A stretch of 64,000 nt of DNA from Trypanosoma brucei (lineage: Eukaryota), in assembly GCA_000002445.1 (NCBI GenBank), contig CP000070.1, positions 2,141,234 to 2,205,233 on the forward strand, in the 5' to 3' direction. Positions 1,049 to 27,900 of this stretch are shown here, piece after piece. The position numbers were made by a program, and so were the translations under genes. The notes below the pieces were generated by a model. The model ran no database searches, was not told the DNA's origin, and saw only the letters and a program-made list of their open reading frames with translations. The stretch's first letter is position 1. Every line of letters begins with the position of its first letter.

Positions 1049-2903
1049 AACTTGATTTCGCCGCGGTGATATATATTTATATGTGTTAGTGGCTCAGTAT
1101 CTTAGACAGAAATGTGAACAAACAAGCGACAAGAATGGGAGTACGCTAAAGTACATGTGTGTGTGTGTGGGGGGGGGGGAGGAGGTTTCGTCGTGGCCAT
1201 ATAACATGATAGTCCACGAAGAGCAATAATAATAATGACAACAACAGCACACCAGCAACTTTAATGAATAAAAAAATATTGATATTATCACACGGAGCCC
1301 TCTTCCAGAATACTAAATTAACACAGCTCACCGCCACGAAAGCAACATAATTAGTTTTCAATAATATTTCAAAAAAAAAAAAGTAAAAAAGAACGACAAA
1401 GGACGGTAAAATAATTGCAGTCGTGTCCAATTCGATAAACTCAGTAAAACGGACGCTGGAAACCGTCAGTCATCGGGGAAAGGTTCATCCTTACGTTCAA
1501 ATTCGCACATGCGTCGTGATAAATACCGACGACGAAACACAAACAATGGCCCAACAAACAGGAAAACAGCTCCCAAAGCATAAGGGGGCACATACACATA
1601 TTACCACAAGGTGGCGACGGCATGAACTGACCAAGTTTTACCCCTGCTAAAAAAATCAACTTCTTACACGAGCGGCTGCCACAATAAAGAAGGAGAGCGG
1701 CCAGCGAACTCATCCGCTCCACAAACAAACTAGATCAGAGACCATCATAATAATGCCAGTAAAGAAAGCAATGCAACAAACCCCACGGCAATGACGGAAA
1801 GGAAAGTATAAACTGTCGGGCATTAAAAAAAAAAAAGAGGATGGAACGCAGTGGAACCTGCGCCGTAACAACGGGACACGTCCATAATCAAAGCAATGCA
1901 AACAATAAACAAAGGGATAAACGTGTAGACGGAAATAAAATTAGTTCCACTTAGCAGATTTGGGGCATTACCATTGCACTCAGTGATCTCACCGATCTTT
2001 CCACATGAAGCATAAGCCTCACCCCAAACCCACCCGACACCATGACAAAACGTAAGCGAATCAACCTCTTTGTGTGGTTTGGAGGCAAGCGCGGTGTGCT
2101 AAGTAACAAAGCCTGGGTGCGAACATCTTTCTACCCATCTCCCCACTAAACGACAGGGAAGTCTGTAGAGAGGTTAACACACAAAAAGGTCTGCTGCTTG
2201 CAGATGCACATCTGTGGAGAACACAGTTGCATGTGTCGTTTGTCCATAGATAGCTAAGGTACGAATACAGTAACATAAAAACGATATGGTGCAAAGCGTT
2301 CCTCTGCACTGCATACATCCCCTGCCTTTCCATGGATTCAACAGAGGCTTCCCCCGGGGTGCGGCAAGTCTCAGGTTGTGTCCACCCCGTGTGCGTATCA
2401 GGCGTGCGTCTGCTTCCGTTGAAGCATTACGCATCTTGCACGCACCATCGACCGCCTGGCAGCGATCGGCTACAGCCTCGTAAAGTCTTCCATAGCTTCT
2501 TGACTGGGCTGCTCCGGCTACCCTGTCAGCAGCCCGTCGCCGACGTGCCTGCTTTTAGCCCACTTTACATCACAACCGGAGGACGCCCTATACCCGTTGC
2601 GGGACCCTTCACGTGCTTCGGGTTGCTGTGCACAGCCGAGGCCCGCGCGAAGAATTATTTCCCGCGAGCTGTGTACTTATGCCGTCGCTTCCCGCATTTG
2701 CTTCTTTCTCCTGTTCTACTCCGGGGCATTACCCGCGCACACCGCTTGGGTGCCATAGCTGGGTCCTGTCTTCACGCAGCACCGTCACCAAACCGGTGGC
2801 GTAACTGCACCGTCAACGTTCGCACACATTTAACGTATTCTTTATATTCTATCTAGCTCCATCCCGCCCCACGTGGAGTCGCGGAGCCACTTTCTCATTT
2901 AGA

Positions 2904-2930
2904 CCCCCCCCCCCCCCCCCACACACACAC
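2904..2930. repeat. C17 homopolymer followed by (AC)5
   Basis: Direct reading of the sequence: 17 C from 2904 to 2920, then acacacacac. Confidence 0.9.
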
Positions 2931-5900
2931 ATCTAAACTCACTTCATGCTGAACTGAGTCTCCGAGTCGCCCAACCAACCTTTCCCACTCTTCCCTTTAG
3001 CAATAACTGGCCACACAGCCGGACTTTTGCATGCATATCTGTCCTCACCGACCGCGGCATCGGGGGCGTCTGTCAGTCCGGGTCCCCTCACAAACCTGCA
3101 TCTCCGTGGGCTCAGCTTCCGATCGGTCGCGGCGCCCCAGACAACAGGGTCCGTGATGCGGAAGCCGCAACACGAACTCCCATCACTTCCATTAAGGAAC
3201 GCAAGCTAAGTGACTTTGCTGAAAGAGGCTTTCCCGCTCCAGACGTCGGTGAAGCCTTTCGAGTTAACGTGGCGTCCGGCTCCGTTATCCCTTTGAGGGT
3301 GAGGCCAGGCGTCGGCATGCATCCTGGTTTGTGAGGGCTGGGGAGGGCGAGAGGCCGTCGGGGAACGTGCGGGTGGCAAAGCCGTTGGTTCTCCAACGCG
3401 AAAAAGGGTCGTCCGTTTGGGTCCCTGAACACACTGGGCCGCCCCCACTGGTATCCGCTGTGCGATGCCGATATTGAGCCGGTGTGTCAAACGAATCCCT
3501 ACTTGTGTTTTACGTGGGTCACAAGGGAACTTTGGTGTGTGTGCGTGTGGTTCTCCCAGCCGAAAAGAATCGCGTTAGCGAGGCGTCCCCATGCGAAGAA
3601 ATGCAGTATCCACATCTCCCCGGGGACACCTCCGCACAGACGAAACGGAACACAAAATAATACAAGGATGCCGGCAGATTGGGGAACCGTGGTGTTTCGA
3701 GAAAAAAATGCACCTTCGAGGGATCACAGAAGTGTGCAGAACAGCAAAAGTTTTTCTCTGGGGAATGAAAGAGCAGCAACCAAACCAACATTCGGAGAGG
3801 AACGGAAAGCCGCGCTTGCGTCCACATCTTACTGGAGACAACCTGCAAGACCACTCGCTGAAAGGAAGCGTGCAAGAAACAACCTAAGGATATGCAGAAA
3901 GGTAATCAAATGCCAATGCGACAGGGGCGGGGACTTGAACACCCCGCAGATCACGCGGAGCACGGTTTTGGAATAGGGTTTGCAGGGTATGAGGGATAAA
4001 CGTTGCGGGCGATTGGAGGAATAGTGGTCACTTATAGGGCGAGGGATTCACAATGCGAGTGAAGCAATTCCCCCAGCTGTTGGAGGAGCTAGAACAAGTG
4101 GGTGGGAAGACAGTTTAAACACTAAACCCCTTGAAGAGCTGGAGAAGAATATACAGAAGGCACTGGCCGAGGCGCAGAGTAGAACACGATACATATTCCG
4201 ATAGTACGATAACTTGTGCGTTCATATTCAGGGAAACACCCAACACACTAGGAATAAACACCAGGAGATGGTTGCAATGAAAGTAGGTATAGATGATGAA
4301 GCGCTCCTGGTAGCAAAGGCGTCTCTGAACATCCTCCAAATCCCCCGCTGCACGACAGAATGTACGGGACAAAGTGCCGTCGCTAAGCATATGCAGCGCG
4401 AGAAAGAACAGAAAATGAAAAACAAGACAGCGCATCACTCTGGGGATAGAGCGCTAGAAATCTTCATAGAATTTGTTGGAATTGTTAAGTCCTGAAAGCA
4501 CCGCGTAAAGAACATGATGCAGGGAACGCTTTGGAAGGCGAATTGCCATCTCACAGACACCCAACTCGTTTCCTATGCAAATTTTTCGGGCCAAAGTATT
4601 TAGGGCAAAGAAAAAAAAAGGAAACGCCGCATCCTCTTCCCGACGAATGCACGAATCCAGAGAGGGAGTGGGAGTCAAACGCCTCTGTTTTGCCAAGTTT
4701 ATTCCTCCTTCACCTCACGATATGCCTGCGTATGGGGTGCGGCAGTGTCGCTGCAATGGATTGGCAGGTGCCGAACGCAACCTTGCGTCTTGGCCCCCGG
4801 GTGCCATCTGCAGGACGGTAAAGGCACCGCTTCCACAGACCTTGGCTGCTGCCGCGTGTGGTTGCTATGAGCGCTGTTCCGGCAATCGCCCTCTTCAGGT
4901 GGAAAGGGCGTCAGCCTGCAGATTTCCTCCATACGGAATGAAAGACGCCGACGACACTTACACGAGAACGACCTTGTCGGTGGAGGTCACGATTCCCGAA
5001 GGTTTTACCAGGTGTTTTCCTTCCAACCTGCCGCTACCTCAGTTGCGGGTGTTTCCAACGTCGGCAGACGCGCCTTTGTGAAAGACACGGGCTAGAAACC
5101 GGCGAAAAGTTATGGGGTTTGGAGAAAGAGCCAGTGAATGGTTGACGGAAGTTCCACGGATGTATTCCGGCTCAATCGCATTCCCCACAGTTACGACATT
5201 GAGGCGCCAGCGGGTCAAGCGGGTACCTGGAGAAAATGGCAGCAGAGAGGTCATCGAGACCGCACACCCGAGTAGGCACCCACCTGCAGTTCTTTAAGTA
5301 CACCACAAGGCCTTCATATACGAGCAGCAGGGGCAGCGGCGAAAGGGGAAATCTGTCACAGCCGTCGCCATGGAATCAGCGTCACATACTTCGCAAACTA
5401 ATGAGGGAACCCGCCAATGCACGGACAAAAAGCATGACTTCCGTTAACAGCGGGAAATGCAAGCAGCCGCTGCTCGCAACGCCCCTTCAGATTACTACGG
5501 AGGAGGGCTTTAAGAACAGAAGAAGGGGGAAAAAAAAACAGGTTTGGGGATGCGAGTGACACCAATGAAAGGTGTTAACGTGTCTAGAAACCGCGGTGCT
5601 TCAAAAATCGGTTGTTGTTTGAATGTAGTGCAAAGCGATATAAGGCAATGGTAGATCTAGCGATAGCCAAAAAACAGCGGCAGCTGCAAATTAATAAAAC
5701 CCTGATATGGAGGTTCCGTTTTGGATGTAAGGAAGAATTACTGAAATTAAATGTACTCATAACCAGATTTATACAAAAAAAATATGAAGAGGTAGGTTAA
5801 ATGGTAACACCAACGAAAAATAAAAAAAGACCAAACAATGCACTACAAAGTGAGAAAAACATCGTTTACGCTTACCGTACAGAAGGCAATTTCACGGCCC

Positions 5901-6272
5901 TTAAGAATAAAAAAAAACCTAACACACTAGGGTTAACATCTTAGAAAAACATCACGCCGCATACACCTGACAGAAGGTTGTTTACTTTGCGCGATAGCAA
6001 GCAAGAACCTACTAAATCGTATGGGTGAAGGGGTGTGTTGAAATCCAACTCCCCCCCCAGCTACATTCAGCAAGCGACGTAACTGCAACAAGTAAAGATG
6101 CATATCTTGCGCCGAACCAATTGGGATGTATACTGCCAATGGGCTTAAGGAAACTCTTCACATTAAAAGTAAAATACCTACGAAACATACCATACATCTT
6201 TCACAACATCCCATGGCCTTATAAGCCTTAGAAGCCACGATCTATCTGTGATTAACTTCTTTTGATCCTAAT

Positions 6273-15344: not shown

Positions 15345-17795
15345 TCAAATATTAGTAGGAACCACGTCCCGCCGTCTTTGGAAGACGAGTGTTAATATAA
15401 AAAGTGTCAACGCACACAAAGAAATTACGGACAAAAGATAAACATATTCCAATATACCCCCGTCACTGTATCTCGATCTTACTGAAGAAACATGGTCACC
15501 AAACGTAAAAAACACACCGTCATGTGACTGCCTGCCAGCCCCCGCAGCGACTCTTGAAGACACAGGAAGCGGCGTCGTCGGGTTGGCTGCACGGATCACC
15601 TCCCTGTTGGTGAACACCAACTGTAGTTCCCCTTCGCTCAACCTTCGGTTGTACAGGAGCACACTGTGTACAGTTATGGATGTGTGATCCGAGAGATCAG
15701 AGGACGCTGGGGTTCCAACGAAAAAGTGCCTAATGTTTAGAAGGTCGACACGATCGGACTCACTAACATTAATTGCAGCAACCGCTAGTTTGCCGTCAAC
15801 GTATGCAACAACCAAACCATCTTGCAATGCTAGTGCAATCTGGTGAGTCTCTTCCAAATTTGACGGCACCGGAGAACCTTCGCTGCATTTTTCTCCGTAC
15901 ATCAGAGTCCATCTCGTATTTTCAATCGAAAGAATAAAGAGTTTATTAGCATTCTTTTCTCCATTCACAAAACCAATTAATGGAGTGTCCCTTTGAGGCA
16001 CCGCGCCAAACTGCACCGTCGCCACAATTGTGAAATGGGTGTTGGCAAAGTAGTACCGTTGGTCTTGCCCTTGCTCACTAACCGGCCACACTACACTGCT
16101 TCCACTGGTACCACCTAATACGACGCCACGTTTGTTGTCCACAGCTCCACTGACACTTGCATTTACACACTTGTACACGTCAGGCCACACATGTCCAACT
16201 GCGGGTCCGGTAAGCAACCCGGCAAGATCACCAACTGGTATCCCCTTACAAGGTCTCGTTCCTCCAACCGATGAAAGACAGTCACCCACCAACAGAGCAT
16301 CCTGTGCCTTCCATAACAACACGACCCGTTTAATCATCTTCATCTCATCCACAAGACGTGCAAGGTAAATAGTGAAAACCTCTTCGATTTTCTGCTCATA
16401 TAGGCAGTAAAGTTTGCCATCGCTCGTGTATAGTAAGGAGCTGTATGGACTGTTGTCGTCACCTTGAGATATCTGTCCGACAAGGAATACACGAGTGCCG
16501 TCCGTTAACCATAACTGGAGATGGTCACGCGAGAAACTCCCCTTCTCATTTTTTGGCTGAGAAATTAGCATGACATCCATGCCCTCCACAGTTATGGAAA
16601 TAGCACTTCCTGAACTACCAGGCTGGTTACGAAGCGGCGAGTTGCCTATCACTCGGGAAAGAGTACTGATGGATTCCTTCAACGTATTCCCTAGGTCACT
16701 CGTTTCAAACACCCTGCGGTAACCTACATATTCGGCCGTTCTGGCATTCACTAACAACCTGTCTTTCCACCAAACCACGGAAGATTCAGTTGAACCGACC
16801 GGTGTTTCTCCCGCACCGAAGTGCCATGTTTTGCCATCATCAGTTGAGTACAAAAGTTTTCCTACAACATGGTTCCATGTATTCTTGACTTGGACAGAAA
16901 ATACAATGGCGCCGTCTGGCGTTACGGCAGCGTTCCCTACGCCACCAAGAAACTGGGATGGGGGGTGCCCACCTGGTGAGGGCACCGTTGCTAAGAGAAA
17001 CTTCAGGTTCTGGGGAGCCTCAAATGTAATGCTCGCAGTTACATTACCATCTTTTTCCTCTTTGATGACAGTACCCTTGTACATGAGTATATCCCAGTCT
17101 TCGCCGTAATGCTGCCACGTCCAATACTTACTGGAAGTGTTGTACCTTCCCACGAGAACGAATATATTGTTTCCTTTGACGGCGACTGTGGGATCTACAA
17201 CTCGGGAAAAATTAGTGTTAACACGACTGTTCTCAATGATGACTTTAGTCTTCCAAGTATCCCCACCATCAGCACTGTACTTGGCAACTGTCTCAGTGAA
17301 GGTGAAATCAGCAGATGAAATGTACCGTACGTCGGCGATGCCCACCAACACACCACTGACTTCAACAAACGAAGGGACACGGAAAGAGTGAACGTTGCGC
17401 ATCCATTGCGTTCCATTCTTCTCCCTAAATGGAACTTTCGTCCTCGGCACCAGCGTGTATCCTTTCTTCCTCTGAGAAAGCCACTCCTTCCTGCAAACTT
17501 CTCCCTTAGCTTCTTTAGCAACCGAGTCCATGCACCACGCCCACCATTCATAGCCGGCGTTCCACTCGGGGGAGGTTTTCCAACTGCCCTTTTCCCATTC
17601 ACTCTTCCTCACCCACCGGCCACCTTCCAGAAACACCTCACGCGTCGTCTTCTCATAGATCTTGGAGGACACGATGCCGCAGCAAAATGACAAAACAGAT
17701 AGTATCACCACTGTGCACGGTAAAAACGGATATGCTAACATGGAAAATGGGCTCGTCAGGCTTAGGGTGCCCATGCGCACCTGCAGGCGTTCCAT
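15345..17795 (-). CDS. Trans-sialidase/sialidase family protein (about 816 aa from the first ATG; the ORF-track start at 17840 is a GTG)
   Basis: FRIP-type motif (SFRVPSFVEV) carrying the catalytic Arg. Asp in IADVRY matches the TcTS Asp59 position. Asp boxes SADGGDTW and STDDGKTW are present. A hydrophobic N-terminal signal (MLAYPFLPCTVVILSVLSFCCGIVSS) and a hydrophobic C-terminus (LLSVISLCALTLFILTLVF) are consistent with a GPI-anchored surface enzyme. In-frame ATGs lie at 17795, 17774 and 17741; the signal peptide favours 17741 or 17774. Confidence 0.85.
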   Translation of the reverse strand: MERLQVRMGTLSLTSPFSMLAYPFLPCTVVILSVLSFCCGIVSSKIYEKTTREVFLEGGRWVRKSEWEKGSWKTSPEWNAGYEWWAWCMDSVAKEAKGEVCRKEWLSQRKKGYTLVPRTKVPFREKNGTQWMRNVHSFRVPSFVEVSGVLVGIADVRYISSADFTFTETVAKYSADGGDTWKTKVIIENSRVNTNFSRVVDPTVAVKGNNIFVLVGRYNTSSKYWTWQHYGEDWDILMYKGTVIKEEKDGNVTASITFEAPQNLKFLLATVPSPGGHPPSQFLGGVGNAAVTPDGAIVFSVQVKNTWNHVVGKLLYSTDDGKTWHFGAGETPVGSTESSVVWWKDRLLVNARTAEYVGYRRVFETSDLGNTLKESISTLSRVIGNSPLRNQPGSSGSAISITVEGMDVMLISQPKNEKGSFSRDHLQLWLTDGTRVFLVGQISQGDDNSPYSSLLYTSDGKLYCLYEQKIEEVFTIYLARLVDEMKMIKRVVLLWKAQDALLVGDCLSSVGGTRPCKGIPVGDLAGLLTGPAVGHVWPDVYKCVNASVSGAVDNKRGVVLGGTSGSSVVWPVSEQGQDQRYYFANTHFTIVATVQFGAVPQRDTPLIGFVNGEKNANKLFILSIENTRWTLMYGEKCSEGSPVPSNLEETHQIALALQDGLVVAYVDGKLAVAAINVSESDRVDLLNIRHFFVGTPASSDLSDHTSITVHSVLLYNRRLSEGELQLVFTNREVIRAANPTTPLPVSSRVAAGAGRQSHDGVFFTFGDHVSSVRSRYSDGGILEYVYLLSVISLCALTLFILTLVFQRRRDVVPTNI

Positions 17796-20008
17796 ATACT
17801 TTCTGCAAGCGTCCTCGCACCTAGCGAATACACCGCTCACAAGGTATAGTATAAGAGTACGCTTTCTAACACGTAAAATTCATGTCGTAAGGTGAAGTAA
17901 TCGAGGTTGAAATAAAACACACTCATTAACGCAATGGATTAGGCACAAAAATACAAATGCCAGCGGGAACGTCACGAAGACCACTGCAAAAGTTGAACCC
18001 ATGCGTTACGCTTGGTGGTCGGGCTGGTCGAAGAGACATAAACGAACTGCTGTTACACCACCAACTCCGTAAATTGTTTGATTGACGTAGAATATTAGTG
18101 ATAAGAATGTATTCGCAGCGGCCTTATATGGGGGCAAAAAATAACCGTAGGGTCACTTCCTAACACGCATTGAACAAGAGGTACCGATACGCGTGCACTC
18201 ATACAAGTTTTACAAACCCCCATGTTGTGAACAGTTAAATCCCTCATCTCTCTTATCAATATAGCGGCAAGTTTCAGCTTTTTGTTTAACCAGGAGAACT
18301 CAAGAGGCTGCAACAAACTTCGTGAAAGATAGGCAGGTGCGGAGGGGGGACGGCATCAAGTCACCGTGGGGTGAGCGGCAGCCCTCCTATAGGGGAAACC
18401 CGCTGCTGGAACTCCTTTACGAACTTATATGCGTAATGTCAGCAAAGTCGTCCGCGCCAACAGGAAAGTAAACTAACCCTAAGCAGTCGGTTTGCTACTC
18501 AACGAGCGGGGAAATTAAATTCGGGCCCGCCATACTGATGCCCGAAAGTCGAGAAGAAAAGGGACTGCACCCTCCTTCATAGGTGAAGCTGAACTCCCAT
18601 TACGGCAGTAATTGTAAAGAGAGAACAAACTGATCGACGCTGCCGCAGCTGAGGCAAAGAATTGCCCTATCGAACCGGCATGCCGGCAGGGACTTCAAGG
18701 GGAGAAAATAAAACGGCCCCCAAAAGGAAACTCATCGGTGATGAATTACCCACACGACACTGGCATATCAGTTGTTAGAGTGCAAAGGCGCCGTTGTTAG
18801 TATGGGCTACAGCTTTCTACCGTCCAAATTTGGCCGCGACACAAATCCTTTGCTTTCGCCCAAGGAAAGCGCAGTGTAGCCGGACTGTACGTTGCGCACG
18901 GACGTGAAGGCCAATTGAAACAAGCCTAAGACAGCCCACTGGCACAACCAAGCCACGTGTTAGCAGAAAAGTGAGTGACACCACTTCAATTAGGGATGAG
19001 ATCACAGTGGTACAGTATCCTCCCCTAGGTTACCGCTCCACTCCTTCGATCGCAATGCGGCACCCATTCACCGTGCCCAACCCAACGTGATCACCGAACT
19101 TTACGGCAGTGCGAGCATAGGCGAAGGGGAAGCGCTGCTTGGTGCGGCCCATGCGAGAAACTTCAGCCACTGAAAAGGGACTGTTCCAATACACCTCCCG
19201 CTAGCCGCATCCCCGCTGACGAACAAAAACATGTATGCGGCGCCCCGGTGTCCCGAGGCTGAGTCAGTAATTGCAGTGCTTTCGCCCCCTTTTCGGTGGA
19301 GTGGGAGCCAATGCCAGTGTTCGGACTGAGCAGGCGAGGATGTTGGCGACGCGAGGGCAGCATGAAGTGACGGTGAAAGCGTGGTCAGGCATTTCTCGCC
19401 TCTACGCGGGAGGGTACAGCGCAATCAGGTGCGCTCCGACAGTCCGGACGCGGTGCGTACCGAAAGCGTGTGCCGCAGTCGCGGGAGGAAGTGCCACAAT
19501 GTCACTTCTTTCCTCCGGGGCGCGGAAGCAATGTCGAGTCTTTCCGTATGAAGGGCGGTGCGTCAGCCAAAGAAGGTCCGATGCGAACCGGAGGCGTTGA
19601 ACCAAGGAAAGGACGTAAAATAGTTTAGTTGAGACACTGGCAACACACCGCAGCAAACGACCACCACAAGGGCGCGGAAGGGGGTGGGGGAGATATGGCG
19701 ACGCCGTGGCGAACGTCAACCATCTCAACACAATTAGGGGACGGATGCTTGACACTTTGGGTCAGTCCGTTCTTTGCCTATTCGATATCTGCCGCCCACG
19801 GCTCCGCTTGTGGCGTTTACCTTCAGACGCGAGGGCGCCATCGAGTTGGAGTGAGAGGGGTGTCGAGTCCCGGCTCCTCTTCTGTGGGAGGGGAAGCAGC
19901 GGTGCCACCACACTATGGTTATTGCCGTCGCGACGTCGTCGGTCCCGTGCGACACCTTACTGAATCGGTTCCCGTTCCTCGTTTCAGTCCGTGTGGCGTT
20001 CACGACAC

Positions 20009-20023
20009 GGGGGGGGGGGGGGG
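20009..20023. repeat. G15 homopolymer inside the divergent strand-switch region
   Basis: Direct reading of the sequence. Confidence 0.9.
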
Positions 20024-20591
20024 CCGTATCCGTTGCGGAGCTTTGTCGTTTTAGAGAGTTTTGGGTTCTAGTGTCGTGCAACATTAGCGAGTTGACTCCC
20101 CACCTCCATTGCAGGTTGTACCGCTTCCTTTTTGTTGACCAAATAAATGTGATTTTCTGCTTGTTCGTAGCTGGGCGCCGTCATCTGGATGCGAAAATGA
20201 TTTAAGTACCGTCCGTTGTGTTGATGTGTCCTGCTGCATGCAGATGTGACGGAGGTTGCCGATATGGCGAAGTCTAAACACCTTTTGGCTGCAGAAATGC
20301 TGTAACAGTTGCGCATGGCGCCGGTGGGTCGGTGCCGGTGCTTTCCGGGAGTAGCTGCCGTGCCATAGAGTGCAGAAGTTTCCGATTTGGCGATTCTGCT
20401 CGGTTAAATTCGCTTGTTTACTTTCCCAAGCTATCGCCTTTGACTTTGAACGAAGAGGGGGAGGTACTTGCCCCTTAGAAACCGTGGCAGCGTCAGGTGC
20501 AGAGGTTTGTTATGGGCGTTTGAGACGGGGGCTGCTTGCAGTGACTGAACAGAGTGTGAGCCAACATGTTTGCTTGATAACGAAAACCCTC

Positions 20592-20613
20592 TTTTTTTTT
20601 TTAGGGGGGGGGG
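20592..20613. repeat. T11-a-G10 compound homopolymer
   Basis: Direct reading of the sequence. Confidence 0.9.
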
Positions 20614-23600
20614 TCATACCAGCAGCTTATTTTACATGTTTATGTGTTGATGCGTACAGTTCACTCACATGCATTTTTTGTTTCGTTATTTCTTTTCCCC
20701 AGTGGGAAAATGCACTGTGCAACTGATAGGATAGATCAGCTCTCTTTTGCGGTGGGCTGTTCTCGTTTCAGCATCATATGACGAGCAAGTCGCCGGAGTA
20801 GGGGCTTTCGTTTATTTGATATTTCCCAACCGCCCTCCTCTTGCGGCGTTCCGTCTTTTTTACCTCTGAGATTAGCTTTGTATGTGTGGAGCGCTGGATT
20901 GCGTTGGGACAACACACACCTTTCACTTGTGTGAAGCGGTAGGCTCAGAAGCTGGTGAGTTAATGTGACTGCTCGGTGTGCCGTGATTTTTTGGTCATTT
21001 TTCGTACTTCAATTACTTTCCCCGAGTCGTTCCTGTTTGTGGGAAAAAAAAACAGTGACGAGCTTACCTTTCTTTTGTACCAGCGGCGGTTGTTTATGTT
21101 GTATTGTATTTGTTTGCCAATTCAATTGACGACTTAATTAGCGTTATCATTGTTAACTTTTTTGCTTTGGAGAACCCACGGGGAGAGGCACCACGGTTGC
21201 AGTGGTCACCGTTGCAGCAATCGCTGCAGGTTACTTGTTTTATCGAAGTGGTGGAAGATAGTAGTAAAACACTCATATCACTCACACTTGAATGTTGTTT
21301 CAGAATTATTGGATATCGCATGGGACAACTGAGAATGTTGTGCGTGTTACGTAGATTCAAGCGACATCCACTCAAGTCAGCGGTTAAAAGCGTTTGCCTT
21401 ACCGTGGATTTGACTTCTTGCGTTGGGTTTCACTGACATATCGTTGGGTTTGAACAATCAGCTTATAGACAAAGTTATTTTACCATTCTCCTCTTTTTAC
21501 CAGTTTTGTTATTTACAGGTGGGCTTACTTTTCCACTTGTAACCATTTGAAGGCTGTGGTAAGCATTATTTATGTGCCACCGTGCCGGCAGTGTTGTTAA
21601 GCAGGGGGGAAAGAAGGCACTATTGAAACATATTGGCACCATTTAAACGCCACCATACGCCAACATGGAACTTCTTCGTTATTTTCCCGCAATGTCATCC
21701 TGTGAGTCACACTTGTAATCACTACGGGGATTCGTCCGGCAGATTCTAGTCGTGCTCGTTCAGTGGGCAATGTTCTCTCTCACTGGTGCAGGCCATTATC
21801 GTCATTGTGATGGAGGTGCTTGGAATTGGACATCCGGTTTCTTACTTTTTATGTTGTTCACATCACAACCACCACACAGACACTTTCCCGTAGGTATGAT
21901 GTCCTTTAAAAAAAGTGGAACTGACGGCTCCAGAAGGGCTTCTACCATGTTGATTTTCTGCCTCGACGGGATCGTGAAGGCTGATCAACTGTGATAAATT
22001 CATATTGACGGCCCGTGACTTCGAGGACTTTTTTGTGGCTGAGCGTCGAGAGAAGCTCCAGGACCAGGACATGCCTGTGCTAGTGGGGGCACCGAGCACG
22101 GTACGGAAAGGTATTAAATAAACTGGAGCAACCACATAGATGTGTATCATTAGATGCAACTAATAAAGTTTGAAGTTACAGCAGAGACAGCGATACTTCA
22201 CTGCAGTGGATTATGCCAACGGGTGCTTGCGGGGGTTATGATCAGTTGGTGGTGAGCGCTTTTCTAAAGAGGATCGTCGGGTACGAACCCAGTAGCAGTG
22301 CCGGATGTGTATACAAGGAAGCCGGATTTTTTCTGCACTGATAGGTGCCATGCCAATTAATGGGTGCCTTATGGATGCTTTGAATGAAACGTTCTCTGTG
22401 GAACTTGAAGTGCTCACAATGCTGGCAGAGTAGCTTTACAGGTCGCACGAAAATGTATTTGACAGAGCGTCGATATCGGTCTGCACTTGCTGAATATAGT
22501 GAATATATTGATTCTGACGATCCCTGGTGGGATAAGCTAAACTAATTCCCACTGGATGCTAATCATGTCTACACGGATGAAGAGACGTGTGCTCGTCATT
22601 TCGTTGTACAAAAGCTGCCTGGCAGCGAACCTACCACGCTACAGGCGAAGGTAATGGAGAAGCTAAAGTGCTTGACACCAAATCCAGAGATGTCGCACAT
22701 ACGAGGTGAACATGGCGCTCGACTGGTGCGCCACGGAGGTGCTGTGCTGACGATCTCCGTTTCTTTTACCGAACACATGCGGTAAAGTGGAGCCCAGATG
22801 AAACGAACGGAGCGGAATCCGGTTCGCTAGTTTTCAGCCTTGCTGTGACGTGTGGTCGAGCCACTGAGCATAGCTGTATGTGTTTGCGGTGTGTGATTGA
22901 AAAGTGAAAGAGGTTGTGGAAGAGGGTGATGAACGGTACCGGTATTGAAACAACTTGGTTATGCCGATGGGGCGCCGTCAGATCTATTTCCCTGCGCGGG
23001 TTTTGTTGGAGAGGCCCAAAGAACTTAAAGTCTTCACTGGGCGGTGCTGGTTGCGAGGCCGCAGTCCAGTTACTGACGTGCTGGGGTCTTGACGAATCGC
23101 ACCTGGAACCGATAAATCGGTAGTTTAGTTGCAGTGAATTGCCTGTACATGGTTTCTACTTGAATAATTGCGAGTCGTCGGCCGCAGCAGAGATTTAGGG
23201 GCTATTGTGCTTGAAGAGGGTTAGATTGTATACATGGGGCGTTTGGAACAGTAACCTTTAAGGGCGGAAATGAGGCTGTTTTTCTGTTTTCGTTTTTTTT
23301 CCCGTAAATTTCATATTATCGAAAATCTCTGGTGTGACATCGGCACCGACAAGTCTCTAGGGGTCCAATCCAACGGAGACACGTATGAACTGCAAAGTAA
23401 CGGAACAAGTGATGAATAAAAGGGAAGTCTGTGCAACCTCAGTGTTTGAATGATTTGCCCCGTACCGGGGGAGTGCCTACCTGAGCAGGTCTAACGAACT
23501 CTGGGTACATCCTGTTTGCGTTACTGTTTTCTTTGAGTGTATAGATGTTGAACACCACCCCTACGTACGCACCCCTACCTTTCGTCAATCCTGCGGATTG

Positions 23601-24004
23601 TATCAGGGGTGAACGGCAGGCAAAAGGTGCGCTTTAGTGACATTTGTGCACTTCAACATTCTGTCAGGGACTGCGTTTTCTTTCCTTTGCATGCGGAAGC
23701 CGTGAAGTGGAAGTGGACTCGGTACTACGATAAGGCTAAGCTTGAAGGGCTCACCAAGACTCACTTCCTTCCCCCGCTATCGGAAAGTACTCGTTGGCGT
23801 GGCGCATCAAGCAGGTGTTCACTTTCTTACCAAAAGTAGTAGTAAAATGCGGGTGGTGGCTGAGGGTGTTGTCAAATTTGAAGTACCAACCCGATGAACC
23901 GTTCTAGGGTGCAAACACAAGCTAAGCACTTCGATTTAGGAATTTCATTTGCACTTCACTTCAATTACTGTTACCGATTGGTCTGTATGCGCATAGCCCC
24001 ACTA

Positions 24005-24095
24005 ATCTCTTTTCCCTCTTCCTACCGCTTAATTTACATGAATACTGGTCATGTGATTCGCTACGCTTGTCCCCAACTTGCCCTTTGGATCGCAG
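24005..24095 (+). promoter_or_regulatory. Putative trans-splicing acceptor (polypyrimidine tract plus first downstream AG) for the RING-protein gene
   Basis: A ctcttttccctcttcctaccgctt tract, with the first downstream AG at 24094-24095, lies 2 nt before the ATG. Confidence 0.35.
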
Positions 24096-24097
24096 AT

Positions 24098-24934
24098 ATG
24101 AGTTCCATCCCCGCCAACAGCGTTACCTGCTCCATATGCCTCGAGCACTGGGTAGAACCGACGGAGTGCCTGCCATGCAGGCACATATTCTGCAAGAAGT
24201 GCATATCCAGAGTAGAACGGTGTCCTTTGTGCCGCTCGCACATAAGGGAAATGATGAGTGCTAATCGCTTCCTGCTTGAGGCGGTGGAAGGCGTTGTTGG
24301 GCATGACGGGGTTGAACAACGGGTAAGGAATGCAGAGCAGCGAGCAGAGGAGGCAGAGAAAATTTTGGCGGAGATCGCTGGGCCGTTTTTGGAAACAGAC
24401 AACGAAACATGTTGGGAGGCGAAGGCAAGGGAGAATGCAGAAAAGGTCATCGGAGGCCTCCGGTCCCAGCTGGAGTGTCTAAGAGCGAAGAAACGCGGTA
24501 TGGAAGCAGCCATATCGAAACTGGAAGCGAGCAAGAGAAATTGTGCGCGGGGTCCGGATGTAAATCATTTTTTGCATTGCCTTTCGGGTGCCACACTGCT
24601 TCCGCAGTTGATATCAACCTTTGCCCCAACTTCAACTTCGCGCGCCGCCATGGGTGTTGCAGCGAGAGCGGCGTTGGGGATGGTGACGGGAGGTCCTTTG
24701 GGGGCGGTCGCCGCCGCAGCATTTGCGGGGGAGTCGAGTGGGAGGCAAGGAAATGATGAGATAGATGAAGAAATACGAGTGAAAACAGCAGACCTGCGGA
24801 TTTTGGAGCGTGAGATCGAGAACATCGAGGCCAACTTGCGTTTGGAGGAAGAGAAGGAGAATCGAAGGCAGTATTTTGTGGGGTTGATAAGGTCAATGGG
24901 ACAAAATTCGGAGCGCGGGATGGGACAATCATAG
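24098..24934 (+). CDS. RING-finger (C3HC4) protein with a coiled-coil and a C-terminal Gly/Ala-rich hydrophobic segment, 278 aa
   Basis: CSICLEHWVEPTECLPCRHIFCKKCISRVERCPLCRSH is a canonical RING. The ATG at 24098 follows a polypyrimidine tract (24005..24030) and an AG at 24094-24095. The longer ORF from 23894 has no such acceptor context. Confidence 0.7.
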   Translation: MSSIPANSVTCSICLEHWVEPTECLPCRHIFCKKCISRVERCPLCRSHIREMMSANRFLLEAVEGVVGHDGVEQRVRNAEQRAEEAEKILAEIAGPFLETDNETCWEAKARENAEKVIGGLRSQLECLRAKKRGMEAAISKLEASKRNCARGPDVNHFLHCLSGATLLPQLISTFAPTSTSRAAMGVAARAALGMVTGGPLGAVAAAAFAGESSGRQGNDEIDEEIRVKTADLRILEREIENIEANLRLEEEKENRRQYFVGLIRSMGQNSERGMGQS

Positions 24935-27900
24935 TGTGCGCCCAGGGACAAATGTCTCCCGCACTTGGAATGGAACAGAAACCAAAGGGAGTGCCGTAAA
25001 ATGGGAGGAGGACAACCCTGGCGAAGAGTTGATTAGTTTCCCCCACGCATGCACGTAAGGAGTAGCGAGGAATTGTCTGGTCTCGGCGACTCGTCGGGGT
25101 GACACGGCGAAAGCAAATGCAATTGCTCGCTTGTGTACGCGCACATCTGTGGGTGCTGTGCGCCAAGAGGCACGTTCTAGGTCTGACATTTTGATTTTTT
25201 TTTTCATATGTGTGTGAAAGTGGGAATAGTTGTCTGTGCCAACTTTCGTTCTCGCTCACTTTACTGTGTGTGTGTGTGTGTTTTCACTTTTTTTTTGTTA
25301 ATTTTGCTTGGGGTGAGGGGGGGACGTCCTGCCGTCTACCCCACTACCCTTGTGAAGAATCTTGTTGGTAACAGTGAGGTTCAACTAGGCGGCTCCGCGC
25401 CATGTGCGCTTGCCAGAAGACAAGTAGATAATGTAAAGTGGGAAGTTCTTTTGCTTCTATGTGTGAGTTTGGGGACTAATTGTGAGTCTGTTGCTGGTTA
25501 GCTCGCGTATGAAACAGAGAATGTGGTGATTTCATGCAAACCAACAGCCGTGGTTTCGCCGCATTGGCCTAGCGCCGCTGTTCCCCCATATTCTCCCTCC
25601 CCGTTCCACTGTGCAAACCTTTGTTGCCCTTTTCCTCCTGCGTGCTTACACCCCAGGTTACCCCCTGGAGAGCGAGATTAGCAGCAGTTGGAAGTACTCT
25701 ATTTGACCAAACACTTGTTGAGTGATGTTACAGGCAAAACGCGACGTCGATCCGTAAGGACGTGCATCAACTACTTTCACGAACCCCACCGCTCGTTGTT
25801 TGTCCACTGTGTACCACCTCCTGCTTATAGTATAGTTGATATGTTTCTGTTATGCGGACAATGCAATATGATTTGTGCCAGCCCCTCGATTGGTGCGAGA
25901 GCATTTGGGGCACACTAAAACACAAGAACGTTACAAGTGAGTTGTGTGCATCCGATTTGGGCTGCTGGTGTGTGGTGCACCCGTTCCTCCAATGTCTCGT
26001 GCAATCGGCTGCGCTCTTTATCTTTATGGGCTCTGTCAAAAAGAGAGACGTTCCGTCGTGAATGCCTTATGCCTGGATGTACAGTCATACGTCCCGAGAT
26101 GCGCACGCATGGTACTTCCACAGTCTCCATTGTAAATGAGACACAGCGGTTGGGATTAATCGCCGAAGGTGGGACGGATTACTTCTTTTCCGTGATTGTG
26201 CATTAAACCTGAGTGCAGAGGGTTAGGATGCCGCTGCCTACGCCGGTCACTCTTAGGAAACTTGGGCGGACCACCTGACAATTTCTGCGGGTGACTGTCG
26301 AGGCCGCTGACCGCAGCCTCGTTGTCGAAAAAAATATGTACCCCATAAAGCAAGCAGCCTCTGTCCGTATCTCGGAGGATAACAGTCCGATTGGGATCAG
26401 TGGCGGCGGGTGGGAGTTGGTTGCCAAAATGGTGTGAATCCTCCCCCTGTGGTGACCACACTTCTGGAAAGTCGATAATGTGGGGTGACATTCTTGGAGT
26501 GTGTGTGTGTGTGTGTGGTTGGCTATAGATCTTTATACTGCTTCCCTGCGGATGGGTGTTGAACATCGGTTTTTTGGAGGACGTGTATCACCGGCACGAT
26601 TTCATACCCGGTCGGTAGGAGCTGAAGAATTTGGTATTTGTGAGGCAATAATATTTGCTCCACATGGGATTCGGATGTTAGTTTTGCCGCACGAATACTC
26701 CTTACTTTTGAGGACCTTCGCAATGTTAATATTGTGTTGTCGCATGAGGGGGGGGGTTAAACTTTGGCTAAGTTTCCTGTTTCACCTATTCCGTTGTCCG
26801 GACTCGAATATGTATTTGTGGTGTGTATGCGCGTGATGCAATGGCTGAGAGAAACTGCAAACCTACACAAACGCATATATATATATATATATATATACGT
26901 AATAAAGCGCTTTCATTGTCCCTCTCCTCGATCTGATGGAACTTGGATTTCTCAGAGGCACAAAACGGAGAAGGAAGCTACTTGTGTTTCCGATCTAAGC
27001 TATTTACTTCAAATTGTCTTCGTTATAGGGGAGTGGAGTTCTCAGGAACGTGTGCGATGGCGTGTCCGTTCGACACCAGCAATTTTCTTTTTGTTTGGTC
27101 GTCTTAATTTTGATGAGACCTGATGGATCTTATCACAAGGTCTTACCGCGTTTTCCCATAGGCGGGATCTTTCATGAGCACCGGCCACGATTCCCAAGCG
27201 GTTGCTGCCATCTGGATGAGAGGGGGCGGTGGGATTGTGGTTTATTAATTGATGAGGAGGTTGGTTTTATCCAATGCCATCGTCCTCGGAAGAAAAGCAA
27301 TGTGTGCCTGAAACTAACAACGCCTCTAGGCGGTGTTCGAGAGGGGGTAACTGGGTGTTGTGTCACCTCCCGCCACCGATGGGGTGTGCCTTGCATATCA
27401 GATCCAACTATTGGGATGCTGTTGTCACGAACGGCACATAATCTGCAAGCGTACAGCTCATGCATCTATATATACACGTTGTGTGTACTGTTATTACCCT
27501 TTTTGCTGCACAAACATATGTCGTGCTCTAGCTGCCTCGCACTTCAAGGAAGGGAAGGCAATTAGTATATAAGAAAGGGGGATGCTGCAGAACCAGCAGT
27601 CCGAAAATGAGTGGTGGGAATTGAATAGTCTCCCGCAGGACAACACGGGAAATCAACCGCCTGTTGATGGCCATCATTGTCCCATGACGAGGCCGCGAGA
27701 AGGGGAGGAAGACATTAGAGCGCAACCGCCGTCACATCGCCAGAAGACTGAGGGCAATGAGCAACCTCGATGGAAGATGAGCTACGGTGAGGGGGATGCA
27801 TCACTAACGAAGTGGCTGCGGCGGTTTGCGTAAGGTGGAACCGCGTGTTTCCCCCCTAAAGTCCCCTCACGATGCGTGGGTACGTTTGGCATACCTTCTT

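What the first reader, a model, noticed from the sequence alone, without database searches (positions are those of the whole stretch)
19100..20650. GC-rich island and long G homopolymers in the divergent strand-switch region: candidate bidirectional transcription start zone
The about 6 kb divergent strand-switch region has no coding signal. It holds a roughly 1 kb island of markedly higher GC content (overlapping long ORFs in five frames, a GC artefact), flanked by G15 (20009..20023) and T11-a-G10 (20592..20613). In trypanosomatids pol II initiates dispersedly at divergent strand-switch regions, which are marked by H2A.Z/H2B.V and acetylated histones. Which sequence elements trigger this is not settled; G-tracts and GT-rich elements have been implicated. 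The compositional island could instead be the relic of a degenerate element.
Basis: partly seen in the sequence, partly recalled or inferred. Interest (0 to 1): 0.5.

Follow-up and report, generated by a model that had tools for sequence, protein, structure and literature searches.

The report
Known trypanosome bidirectional promoter, GC-rich core
The flagged stretch is the centre of an already published two-way RNA polymerase II start region near the right end of Trypanosoma brucei chromosome 7, so it is mostly ordinary; the one thing worth following up is that its GC-rich core recurs, without sequence similarity, at the three other start regions I could examine.

Summary
G15 (20009-20023) and T11-a-G10 (20592-20613) are exact, and the 1.2 kb at 18956-20154 is the most GC-rich stretch of the window (0.61 against a mean of 0.46).

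The window is the last 64 kb of T. brucei TREU927 chromosome 7. The gap lies between Tb927.7.7480 (trans-sialidase, '-') and Tb927.7.7490 (RING protein, '+').

Kolev et al. 2010 (Table S14) already list both genes as the first genes of 'Divergent' pol II start sites, and Wyllie et al. 2016 name this gap a probable pol II start site.

- **The island is not a gene or a relic.** It has no period-3 signal, no Pfam match in six frames, no repeats and no plasmid match.
- **It sits at the strand switch.** The window-wide minimum of the (G+T)-(A+C) cumulative skew is at 19231. The 1.5 kb to its right is the GT-rich zone that runs to the first '+' splice acceptor (21504).
- **The G runs are not specific to this gap.** They are common on the sense strand all along the transcription units. 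They keep their position but vary in length between strains.
- **The possibly new point.** Comparable, non-homologous islands of 0.7-1.35 kb and about 58-61% GC sit at three other mapped or probable start regions.

The parts
15345..17840 (-). Trans-sialidase TbSA B2 (Tb927.7.7480), first gene of the short '-' transcription unit 7480 -> 7470. The annotated 816-aa protein starts at the ATG at 17795.
   Evidence: Pfam BNR_3 and TS_C domains. 100% identity to XP_846368.1. Gene identifier from PMC3795030. Listed as first gene of a 'Divergent' start site in Kolev Table S14.
17796..21503 (.). The gap between the start codon of the first '-' gene and the first '+' splice acceptor, about 3.7 kb. Both divergent initiation zones must lie in here.
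   Evidence: Bounded by the trans-sialidase ATG and by the 5' end of Tb7.NT.112. The splice acceptor of the trans-sialidase itself could not be retrieved, because the supplementary file was cut when stored.
18956..20154 (.). GC-rich, almost strand-symmetric island: GC 0.575 over the 1199 nt, 0.608 in its best 800 nt, GC skew +0.07, AT skew -0.01. It is centred in the gap.
   Evidence: No coding periodicity. No Pfam match in six frames at E <= 1. No copy elsewhere in the window. No plasmid match. No differences from T. equiperdum up to window 20017 (scaffold gap beyond), and one substitution against T. b. gambiense apart from changes at the G run.
19231..19231 (.). Strand-composition switch point: the minimum of the cumulative (G+T)-(A+C) skew over the whole 64-kb window.
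   Evidence: The maximum is at 54102, where the '+' unit ends.
19664..19704 (+). G-rich stretch inside the island that could form a quadruplex (G4Hunter 2.12).
   Evidence: About 20 comparable sites lie on the sense strand along the '+' unit, so this is not specific to the gap.
20009..20023 (+). G15 homopolymer on the sense strand of the '+' unit, at the right edge of the island. It is G17 in T. b. gambiense and coincides with a scaffold gap in T. equiperdum.
   Evidence: G4Hunter 2.28.
20001..21500 (+). GT-rich sense-strand zone: 27, 50 and 35 ten-mers with at least 9 G/T per 500 nt, against a window mean of 15. It lies between the island and the first splice acceptor and is the probable initiation zone of the '+' unit.
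   Evidence: The AT skew of -0.27 to -0.32 and GC skew of +0.12 to +0.21 are. It matches the description of the 5' end of start regions in Wedel 2017.
20592..20613 (+). T11-a-G10 tract on the sense strand. It is T10-a-G8 in T. equiperdum and T9-a-G8 in T. b. gambiense.
21480..21503 (+). Polypyrimidine tract and AG (21502-21503) of the first trans-splice acceptor of the '+' unit.
   Evidence: Sequence. The 5' end of Tb7.NT.112 (chromosome 7 position 2,162,737) maps to 21504 with the offset 2,141,233, which was derived from three poly(A) sites.
21504..23941 (+). Published novel spliced transcript Tb7.NT.112, the first processed RNA of the '+' unit. It has no convincing reading frame.
   Evidence: Kolev 2010 supplementary file 23. 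ORF list.
23894..24934 (+). RING-finger protein Tb927.7.7490. The annotated 278-aa protein starts at 24098. It is the first annotated gene of the '+' unit.
   Evidence: Pfam RING domains. XP_846369.1. Kolev Table S14.
2250..3600 (-). A second GC-rich island (GC 0.575; best 800 nt 0.59) inside the published internal start region upstream of Tb927.7.7460. It has the same layout in mirror image.
   Evidence: 'Internal' start site at Tb927.7.7460. ORF 470-1048 '-' is 579 nt, and the 5.2-kb distance to the cyclase matches the Tb427 coordinates.
2904..2920 (-). C17 on '+', which is G17 on the sense ('-') strand, inside the second island. It is followed downstream (1200-2250) by a zone that is GT-rich on the '-' strand.

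Best explanation
This is the core of a known bidirectional RNA polymerase II promoter of Trypanosoma brucei: the divergent strand-switch region between Tb927.7.7480 and Tb927.7.7490, about 44 kb from the right end of the chromosome 7 assembly.

Shown:
- Two transcription units leave the gap in opposite directions, and both are listed as start sites in a published 5'-triphosphate RNA map.
- The strand composition flips inside the GC island, at 19231.
- The 1.5 kb to the right of the island is GT-rich on the sense strand, carries G15 and T11-a-G10, and ends at the first trans-splice acceptor (21504).
- The island is neither coding nor repeated.

Inferred mechanism:
- The roughly 1.2-kb, 58-61% GC, strand-symmetric island is the central platform of the promoter. 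This is where published ChIP maps put the narrow peak of pol II and the SET27/CRD1 (SPARC) factors, between the two broad H2A.Z domains.
- Polymerase leaves this platform in both directions.
- Direction and efficiency are set by the sense-strand G and T homopolymers and GT-rich 10-mers just outside and at the edge of the island. These are stiff, exclude nucleosomes and can drive directional initiation and H2A.Z deposition. G15 can also fold into a quadruplex on the non-template strand.
- The '-' side is built more weakly: it is A/C-rich on '+' and has no long homopolymer.
For: Locus identity and published start sites.

Coordinate mapping: it is validated by the AG at 21502-21503, immediately before the published transcript 5' end.

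Composition: the skew minimum of the whole window is at 19231, inside the island, and GT-rich 10-mers are 2-3 times the window mean at 20001-21500.

Published mechanism for GT-rich elements and homopolymers.

Published ChIP pattern: pol II and Class I/SPARC factors form a narrow central peak, while H2A.Z-like factors are broad with a central trough. Initiation lies at the 5' end of the H2A.Z domains.

Recurrence:
- In each T. brucei-group locus I could read, the most GC-rich 800 nt coincides with a start region.
- In the window, the two top 800-nt windows fall in the two published start gaps. The rough chance of this is about 0.008.
- L005 holds the chromosome 5 gap between Tb927.5.630 and 5.640, listed 'Divergent'. 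Its island is at 4450-5150 (GC 0.61) and the skew minimum of the stretch read (3900-6299) is at 5246.
- L006 is the region upstream of the TbTS orthologue. Its island is at 707-1962 (GC 0.59), with a G10 at its right edge (1832) and the skew minimum at 1336.
- The four islands share no sequence similarity.

Precedent and genetics:
- Here the G run is G15, G17 or an assembly gap, and the T/G tract is T11aG10, T10aG8 or T9aG8, in three Trypanozoon genomes.
- Losing one allele of a >70-kb segment that includes this gap halves mRNA of a downstream gene.
Against: - No start-site, polymerase, SPARC or histone-variant data could be overlaid at nucleotide resolution. The claim that the island itself is the platform is an inference from position only.
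- The published table gives genes, not coordinates.
- The recurrence rests on four loci. Three of them were reached through trans-sialidase paralogues, so they are not an unbiased sample.
- For L006, the identity with the Tb927.7.6850/6860 gap is assumed, not shown.
- G runs and quadruplex-prone sites are spread along the whole '+' unit, so they cannot by themselves define the start.
- The left side of the gap lacks a long homopolymer, yet it is listed as a start site.
- Wedel 2017 found activity in GT-rich, not GC-rich, sequence.
- Sequence constraint on the island cannot be judged, because the available relatives differ by under 1%.
Confidence: 0.6

Rival explanations
1. The gap is the promoter, but the GC island is a passive by-product with no role in initiation. 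For example, it could be the footprint of GC-biased repair or gene conversion in permanently open, break-prone chromatin. Or it could be the only part of the region free of the A/T-rich and pyrimidine-rich signals that RNA processing imposes on everything that is spliced and polyadenylated.
For: - The four islands share composition but no sequence, as a mutational process would produce.
- The island is strand-symmetric, which fits a place where opposite transcription-linked biases cancel.
- CpG observed/expected is only slightly above background.
- Reporter activity has been published for GT-rich elements and for a 75-bp element, not for GC-rich sequence.
Against: - Ordinary intergenic sequence in this window is 35-48% GC, so mere absence of processing signals does not predict 58-61%.
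- The sharp edges and similar sizes of the islands (0.7-1.35 kb), and their position at the centre of each gap, fit a delimited element.
- No polymorphism spectrum could be examined: there is only one substitution in the island between the subspecies.
Confidence: 0.3
2. The island is a replication origin or ORC1/CDC6 binding site rather than, or as well as, a promoter part.
For: - Origins and ORC1 sites in T. brucei cluster at transcription unit boundaries, and quadruplexes lie near some origins (abstract of PMC13179062).
- In the ORC1 table of Maree 2017, site 2,144,967 (Tb427 coordinates) maps to about window 2805. That is inside the second GC island and 100 nt from C17.
Against: - The same table has no chromosome 7 site between 2,144,967 and 2,170,061. 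That interval would contain the 7480/7490 gap if the two strains are collinear.
- The mapping beyond Tb927.7.7470 is uncertain, because that gene is truncated in the Tb427 v4 assembly.
Confidence: 0.1
3. The island is the decayed relic of a retroelement (ingi/RIME/DIRE), of a pseudogene or of foreign DNA.
For: It has unusual composition and many overlapping open frames: 7 of at least 100 codons, against 3.15 expected (P = 0.023).
Against: - No Pfam family, and so no reverse transcriptase, endonuclease or RNase H, matches at E <= 0.1 in six frames. The only matches up to E = 1 are two chance-level ones at about 0.3.
- There is no period-3 signal.
- There is no similarity to any gene or other part of the window at DNA or protein level.
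- There are no terminal or internal repeats.
- There is no plasmid match and no Rfam match.
- Non-homologous islands in the same position at other start regions argue against a chance insertion.
- It was not compared with retroelement consensus sequences, which the tools do not hold.
Confidence: 0.03
4. The island encodes a real small protein, as the T. b. gambiense annotation suggests (CBH13038, 125 aa, equivalent to about window 19695-20072 '+').
For: A gene model exists in the DAL972 record, and its frame is open in both subspecies up to the G run.
Against: - The model is not annotated in TREU927, where the accession numbers of the two flanking genes are consecutive.
- The frame runs through a G run whose length differs between strains, which changes the C-terminus.
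- There is no period-3 signal, no Pfam match and no spliced transcript listed there.
- Open frames of this length are expected at this GC content.
Confidence: 0.02

Closest known systems
T. brucei divergent RNA pol II transcription start regions (Siegel 2009; Kolev 2010; Wedel 2017; Staneva 2021/2022)
   Same: It lies between two divergent transcription units. It is listed as a start-site pair in Kolev Table S14. G/T-rich 10-mers and G and T homopolymers sit on the sense strand at the 5' end. The first splice acceptor lies 1.5 kb downstream of the centre.
   Different: Nothing differs in kind: this locus is a member. The GC-rich, strand-symmetric centre is not mentioned in the papers I could read. 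Siegel 2009 and Cordon-Obras 2022 are not held in the library, so I could not check them.
GT-rich promoter elements of Wedel et al. 2017
   Same: Long G and T runs on the coding strand. G15 and T11-a-G10 are on the '+' strand upstream of the '+' unit. Homopolymers of this kind are reported to deplete nucleosomes.
   Different: Wedel's elements were synthetic concatenations of enriched 10-mers tested in reporters. The activity of this natural stretch is untested. The island itself is GC-rich and not skewed, so it is a different kind of sequence.
Transcription initiation segment of the Leishmania chromosome 1 strand-switch region (Martinez-Calvillo 2003; Puechberty 2007, PMC1805754)
   Same: It is the most GC-rich part of the switch region. 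It has a G/C homopolymer fixed in position and variable in length between relatives, and initiation is bidirectional.
   Different: The Leishmania segment is about 72 nt at about 70% GC, in a 0.9-1.6 kb gap of a 60% GC genome. Here the island is 1.2 kb at about 58-61% GC, in a 3.7 kb gap of a 46% GC genome. There is no sequence relationship. Conservation is shown here only within Trypanozoon (under 1% divergence).
Vertebrate CpG-island promoters
   Same: It is a broad, dispersed, divergent initiation zone with a GC-rich core of about 1 kb. Kolev 2010 already drew the comparison for the mode of initiation.
   Different: The numerical criteria are met (GC above 55%, CpG observed/expected 1.04, length over 500 nt). 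They discriminate poorly here, because the whole window has CpG observed/expected of 0.87. The logic of escape from CpG depletion does not visibly apply.
T. cruzi GC-rich strand-switch centromere domains (Obado 2005/2007)
   Same: It is a GC-rich domain located at a strand switch.
   Different: Those domains are 11-16 kb and made of degenerate retroelements. This island is 1.2 kb with no retroelement trace. T. brucei centromeres are AT-rich repeat arrays located elsewhere.

Membership tests
T. brucei divergent pol II transcription start region | Lies between two transcription units that run away from each other | tested here: met
   Genes on '-' lie to the left and on '+' to the right. The window-wide minimum of the keto skew is at 19231.
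T. brucei divergent pol II transcription start region | 5'-triphosphate primary transcripts arise here in both directions | not testable with these tools
   No read data are available. The published Table S14 of Kolev 2010 lists Tb927.7.7480 ('-') and Tb927.7.7490 ('+') as first genes of 'Divergent' start sites. The table gives genes, not coordinates.
T. brucei divergent pol II transcription start region | Enrichment of H2A.Z/H2B.V, H4K10ac and H3K4me3, and a narrow pol II/SPARC peak | not testable with these tools
   No ChIP tracks are available. The locus is absent from the table of start regions transferred to Tb427 v4, which stops at Tb427.07.7460/7470. The probable reason is that the Tb427 v4 assembly is incomplete there.
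T. brucei divergent pol II transcription start region | G/T-rich 10-mers and G or T homopolymers enriched on the sense strand at the 5' end of each start region | tested here: met
   On the '+' side there are 27, 50 and 35 such 10-mers per 500 nt at 20001-21500, against a mean of 15, plus G15 and T11-a-G10. The '-' side is weaker: 14-24 against a mean of 10.4, with no homopolymer of 8 or more.
T. brucei divergent pol II transcription start region | First trans-splice acceptor of each unit lies downstream of the initiation zone | tested here: met
   On the '+' side, a polypyrimidine tract and AG at 21502-21503 sit immediately before the published 5' end of Tb7.NT.112. The acceptor on the '-' side was not retrievable.
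GT-rich promoter element (Wedel 2017) | Drives orientation-dependent transcription and H2A.Z deposition when moved | not testable with these tools
   This needs a reporter assay. Only the sequence resemblance was tested.
Leishmania-type initiation segment (GC-rich with a poly(C)/poly(G) tract) | Highest GC of the switch region | tested here: met
   It is the highest GC of the gap and of the whole window.
Leishmania-type initiation segment (GC-rich with a poly(C)/poly(G) tract) | Homopolymer tract conserved in position and variable in length across species | tested here: inconclusive
   The G run is G15 in TREU927, G17 in T. b. gambiense and an assembly gap in T. equiperdum. The T/G tract is T11aG10, T9aG8 and T10aG8. 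These genomes differ by under 1%, so conservation of position says little. The T. congolense locus I fetched is not syntenic.
CpG-island-like promoter | At least 500 nt, GC at least 55%, CpG observed/expected at least 0.6 | tested here: inconclusive
   The island is 1199 nt, GC 0.575, CpG observed/expected 1.04. The criteria are met, but the whole window has 0.87, so they do not set the island apart except by GC.
Degenerate retroelement (ingi/RIME/DIRE/SIDER) | Remnants of reverse transcriptase, endonuclease or RNase H frames, or repeats at other sites | tested here: not met
   No retroelement domain is found in six frames; the only Pfam matches up to E = 1 are two unrelated ones at about 0.3. 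There is no second copy in the window and no period-3 signal.
Degenerate retroelement (ingi/RIME/DIRE/SIDER) | Nucleotide similarity to the element consensus | not testable with these tools
   No collection available here holds trypanosome repeat consensus sequences.
G-quadruplex-forming site | G4Hunter score of at least 1.5, or four G tracts | tested here: met
   19664-19704 scores 2.12, 19993-20038 scores 2.28 and 20590-20618 scores 1.56. About 20 further sites lie along the '+' unit, so the feature is not specific. Published G4 ChIP reports about 5-fold enrichment at start and stop regions.
ORC1/CDC6 site (replication origin) | Mapped ORC1 binding | tested here: not met
   No chromosome 7 site lies between 2,144,967 and 2,170,061 in the table transferred to Tb427. 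The coordinate transfer beyond Tb927.7.7470 is uncertain.

The most novel reading that the evidence does not exclude
Every RNA polymerase II promoter of T. brucei, whether one-way or two-way, may have a sequence-defined core. The core would be a strand-symmetric island of 0.7-1.35 kb and about 58-61% GC, sitting exactly where the strand skews flip. It would serve as the landing site of the narrow SPARC/pol II peak. G or T homopolymers at its edge and a GT-rich sense-strand zone beyond it would set direction.

This composition-based signature could be recognised from sequence alone. It would answer part of the old question of what marks these 'promoterless' start regions.
Probability: 0.25. Interest if true: 0.7.

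Novelty: already known. Interest (0 to 1): 0.3.

Why it matters
As a locus it does not change anything. It is a catalogued start region with the expected GT-rich, homopolymer-bearing sense strand.

The side result could matter. What recruits polymerase to trypanosome start regions is still debated, between GT-rich tracts, a 75-bp element, and chromatin alone.

A GC-rich, non-skewed core turned up at all four start regions examined, including an internal one that is unrelated to trans-sialidase genes. This is a cheap hypothesis that can be tested genome-wide with existing public ChIP and primary-transcript data. If it holds, start regions could be predicted from sequence in species that lack such data.

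Tried and rejected
RNA genes and repeats:
- Rfam at gathering thresholds over the whole window found nothing. At E <= 1 over the gap it found one chance-level match (ceN109, E = 0.48).
- The tRNA scan found none.
- Direct, inverted and tandem repeats in the gap gave only short chance pairs and the G15 itself.

Similarity searches:
- Six-frame translation of 18800-20700 against Pfam at E <= 1 gave only two chance-level matches at E about 0.3 (Thioredoxin, an EGF-like domain) and no retroelement domain.
- blastn and tblastn of the island and of all window proteins against the window gave no second copy and no pseudogene fragment in the gap.
- The island against 72,556 plasmids in distant mode gave no match.

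The large protein search, and a caveat. All stop-free stretches of 18900-20750 were concatenated (1389 aa) and searched against the 5.8-billion protein collection, with no hit. This negative is weak. The search also failed to return the T. b. gambiense gene model that I later found to lie in the island. The likely reason is that low-complexity words filled the candidate list.

Comparative loci:
- The TREU927 proteins themselves are not indexed for position.
- The Logan contig L001 stops at window 21546.
- The T. congolense trans-sialidase locus L003 is not syntenic, with all its genes on one strand.
- L004 holds only the 3' part of the chromosome 5 paralogue.
- No comparison beyond Trypanozoon was therefore possible.

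Literature:
- Siegel 2009 and Cordon-Obras 2022 are not held, so their statements on G runs and on the 75-bp promoter could not be checked.
- Searches for 'GC-rich' or 'GC content' together with start or switch regions in T. brucei found no description of such an island. They did find the T. cruzi centromere domains, the Leishmania initiation segment and the 2026 G-quadruplex map.

Replication origin: considered, and given low weight.

Full report
**What is in the sequence.** G15 is at 20009-20023 and T11-a-G10 at 20592-20613. The 1-kb window 19051-20050 has GC 0.599, the maximum of the whole 64-kb window (mean 0.464, sd 0.046). The best 800 nt, 19237-20036, reach 0.608, and 400-nt windows with GC >= 0.57 cover 18956-20154 without a break.

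Stop-free stretches occur in all six frames. The island holds 7 of at least 100 codons, against 3.15 +/- 1.54 in first-order Markov simulations (P = 0.023). The longest, at 141 codons, is ordinary (P = 0.57). There is no three-base periodicity: z = 1.0, against 5.4 to 17 for real genes of the window.

Two details need correcting. Both homopolymers lie on the right side of the island rather than flanking it. And only about 3.7 kb of the 6-kb gap is free of processed RNA.

**Where the window comes from.** Pfam shows a trans-sialidase (15345-17840, '-'), a RING protein (23894-24934, '+'), receptor-type adenylate cyclases and a leucine-rich-repeat protein.
- The trans-sialidase is 100% identical to XP_846368.1 of T. 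brucei brucei TREU927, on the 2,205,233-nt chromosome 7. The RING protein is the next accession, XP_846369.1.
- The literature names them Tb927.7.7480 (TbSA B2) and Tb927.7.7490.
- Three published poly(A) sites, for Tb927.7.7460, 7470 and 7500, all give the same offset: window position + 2,141,233 = chromosome position. The window is therefore the last 64,000 nt of the chromosome assembly.
- The offset is confirmed independently. The published 5' end of the novel transcript Tb7.NT.112 (2,162,737) falls at window 21504, immediately after an AG preceded by a polypyrimidine tract.

Table S14 of Kolev et al. 2010 summarises putative pol II start sites from 5'-triphosphate RNA sequencing. It lists 'Tb927.7.7480 -> Tb927.7.7470, -, Divergent' and 'Tb927.7.7490 -> Tb07.30D13.80, +, Divergent'.

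Wyllie et al. [quoted passage not shown] They report that losing one allele of a >70-kb segment containing it halves the mRNA of a gene further down.

Wedel et al. 2017 showed three things:
- Initiation takes place at the 5' end of the H2A.Z domains.
- Synthetic GT-rich elements drive directional transcription and H2A.Z deposition, with homopolymers depleting nucleosomes.

**Anatomy of the gap.**
- The cumulative (G+T)-(A+C) skew of the whole window has its minimum at 19231, inside the island, and its maximum at 54102, where the '+' unit ends.
- Right of the island, 20001-21500 carries 27, 50 and 35 GT-rich 10-mers per 500 nt, against a window mean of 15. It contains both homopolymers and ends at the first splice acceptor, 21504.
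- Left of the island the mirror pattern is weaker: 14-24 A/C-rich 10-mers against a mean of 10.4, with no long homopolymer.
- The island itself is almost unskewed (GC skew +0.07, AT skew -0.01). It is centred in the 3.7 kb between the trans-sialidase start codon (17795) and the first '+' acceptor.

**What the island is not.**
- Six-frame translation gives only two chance-level Pfam matches (E about 0.3) and no retroelement domain.
- The window holds no second copy and no pseudogene fragment in the gap.
- There are no repeats, no RNA family match and no tRNA, and no plasmid match.
- A search with all its open frames joined together found nothing in the large protein collection. That search also missed the one protein I later learned exists, so I give it little weight.
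- That protein is a 125-aa gene model (CBH13038) annotated in T. b. gambiense. It corresponds to about window 19695-20072 on '+' and reads through the G run. TREU927 does not annotate it. The frame's end depends on a homopolymer whose length differs between strains, and nothing else suggests coding.

**The homopolymers in context.** G or C runs of at least 10 occur at 8 loci in the window, where shuffles predict essentially none. Only two of them are in the gap.

Of the 11 runs of at least 8, nine are G on the sense strand of the local transcription unit. The two exceptions, G11 at 1169 and C13 at 32352, lie just upstream of Tb927.7.7460 and Tb927.7.7500. They read as C runs on the sense strand, which fits polypyrimidine tracts for splicing; this is my inference.

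Quadruplex-prone sites are likewise spread along the whole '+' unit. Published G4 ChIP does report about five-fold enrichment at start and stop regions.

Between relatives the tracts keep their place but change length. G15 becomes G17 in T. b. gambiense and coincides with a scaffold gap in T. equiperdum. T11-a-G10 becomes T9-a-G8 and T10-a-G8.

**A recurring island.** The second most GC-rich stretch of the window (2250-3600; best 800 nt 0.59) lies between Tb927.7.7460 (ORF 470-1048) and Tb927.7.7470 (6273-9890). Both Kolev 2010 and the table of Maree 2017 list an 'Internal' start site there. It carries C17 at 2904-2920, which is G17 on the sense '-' strand. Downstream of it is a zone that is GT-rich on the '-' strand (1200-2250). 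This is the same layout as on the '+' side of the flagged gap, in mirror image.

I then fetched two further loci through trans-sialidase paralogues.
- **L005** holds the chromosome 5 gap between Tb927.5.630 and 5.640, listed 'Divergent'. It has an island at 4450-5150 (GC 0.61; flanks 0.34 and 0.47). The skew minimum of the stretch read (3900-6299) is at 5246.
- **L006** holds the region upstream of the TbTS orthologue; Tb927.7.6850 is listed 'Divergent'. It has an island at 707-1962 (GC 0.59), a G10 at its right edge and the locus-wide skew minimum at 1336.

The four islands share no detectable sequence similarity.

In the window alone, the chance that the two top GC windows each fall in one of the two published start gaps is roughly 0.008. 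The sample is small, and three of the four loci are linked to one gene family. For L006, the identity with the TREU927 gap is assumed.

**How it most likely works.** It is shown that this is a two-way start region, that the strand biases flip in the island, and that the sense-strand GT-rich zone with the homopolymers lies between the island and the first acceptor.

The rest is inferred. I propose that the island is the central platform of the promoter. Published ChIP maps place a narrow peak of pol II and the SET27/CRD1 (SPARC) factors between two broad H2A.Z domains that show a central trough. The island would be the site of that narrow peak. The stiff G and T tracts at and beyond its edge would exclude nucleosomes and bias polymerase outward.

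The main rival keeps the promoter but treats the island as a mutational footprint, for example of biased gene conversion in open chromatin. I cannot separate the two readings with sequence from genomes that differ by under 1%.

A role as a replication origin is possible but unsupported for this gap. The ORC1 table has a site inside the second island (about window 2805) and none in the interval that should hold the 7480/7490 gap.

**Comparison with what is known.** The locus is a member of the T. brucei divergent start regions. The closest precedent for the composition is the initiation segment of the Leishmania chromosome 1 switch region. It has the highest GC of that region and a poly(C) tract fixed in position and variable in length in 15 species. 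It is about 72 nt long rather than 1.2 kb.

Kolev 2010 already likened trypanosome initiation to vertebrate CpG-island promoters. The island meets the numerical CpG-island criteria, but so little CpG depletion exists in this genome that only the GC criterion discriminates. T. cruzi GC-rich switch domains are 11-16 kb centromeric retroelement graveyards and are a different thing.

**Verdict.** Interest is low for the finding as written.

The recurring, non-homologous, GC-rich and unskewed core at four of four start regions examined is the only part I could not find described. It can be tested directly with public data.

Noticed in passing
window 1049-5621, island 2250-3600, C17 at 2904-2920: A second GC-rich island lies inside the published 'Internal' pol II start region upstream of Tb927.7.7460. 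It has a G17 on the sense '-' strand and a GT-rich sense-strand zone downstream. An ORC1 site from the table of Maree 2017 (Tb427 chromosome 7 position 2,144,967) maps to about window 2805, 100 nt from the homopolymer.
   Followed up: partly
window 1-64000: The window is the last 64,000 nt of the TREU927 chromosome 7 assembly (offset 2,141,233; chromosome length 2,205,233). The '-' unit that starts in the flagged gap holds only two annotated genes (7480 and 7470) before the internal start region.
   Followed up: yes
window 19695-20072 (+); L007 5724-6101 (-): T. b. gambiense DAL972 annotates a 125-aa hypothetical protein (CBH13038) inside the GC island. It reads through the G run. TREU927 has no such model. 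It looks like an ORF-length artefact of the annotation.
   Followed up: partly
window 10203-15103 (-): The 5.4 kb between the adenylate cyclase and the trans-sialidase has no reading frame of 150 aa or more. It is covered by a published 4.9-kb novel transcript, Tb7.NT.111. The '+' unit likewise begins with a run of long apparently non-coding processed RNAs: NT.112, then after the RING gene NT.113-115, at 21504-23941 and 25831-32386.
   Followed up: no
window 39162-42893 and 46550-50281 (+): These are two tandem adenylate cyclase genes of 1243 aa, 98.6% identical at protein level. They lie in a repeat unit of about 7.39 kb that appears three times; short exact matches recur at 38181, 45569 and 52960.
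   Followed up: no
window 1169-1179 (G11) and 32352-32364 (C13): These are the only two long G/C runs that are not G on the sense strand. They lie just upstream of Tb927.7.7460 and Tb927.7.7500 and read as C runs on the sense strand. They are probably part of the polypyrimidine tracts of those genes' splice acceptors.
   Followed up: partly
window 54100-57200: The cumulative keto skew peaks at 54102. It is followed by the most AT-rich stretch of the window (GC 0.33-0.35 at 55001-57000), and then by leucine-rich-repeat genes on '-'. This looks like the convergent end of the '+' unit.
   Followed up: no
window 27626-28126, G10 at 28094-28103: A smaller GC-rich patch (at least 0.57 in 400 nt) with a sense-strand G10 lies inside the '+' unit. 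If the two strains are collinear, the ORC1 site at Tb427 chromosome 7 position 2,170,061 maps to about window 27900. The coordinate transfer is uncertain.
   Followed up: no
L002 2744-2757 (T. equiperdum), equivalent to window 20018-20043: The T. equiperdum scaffold has a run of N exactly at the G15 tract. Long G homopolymers evidently break short-read assemblies, so tract lengths in draft genomes should not be trusted.
   Followed up: yes
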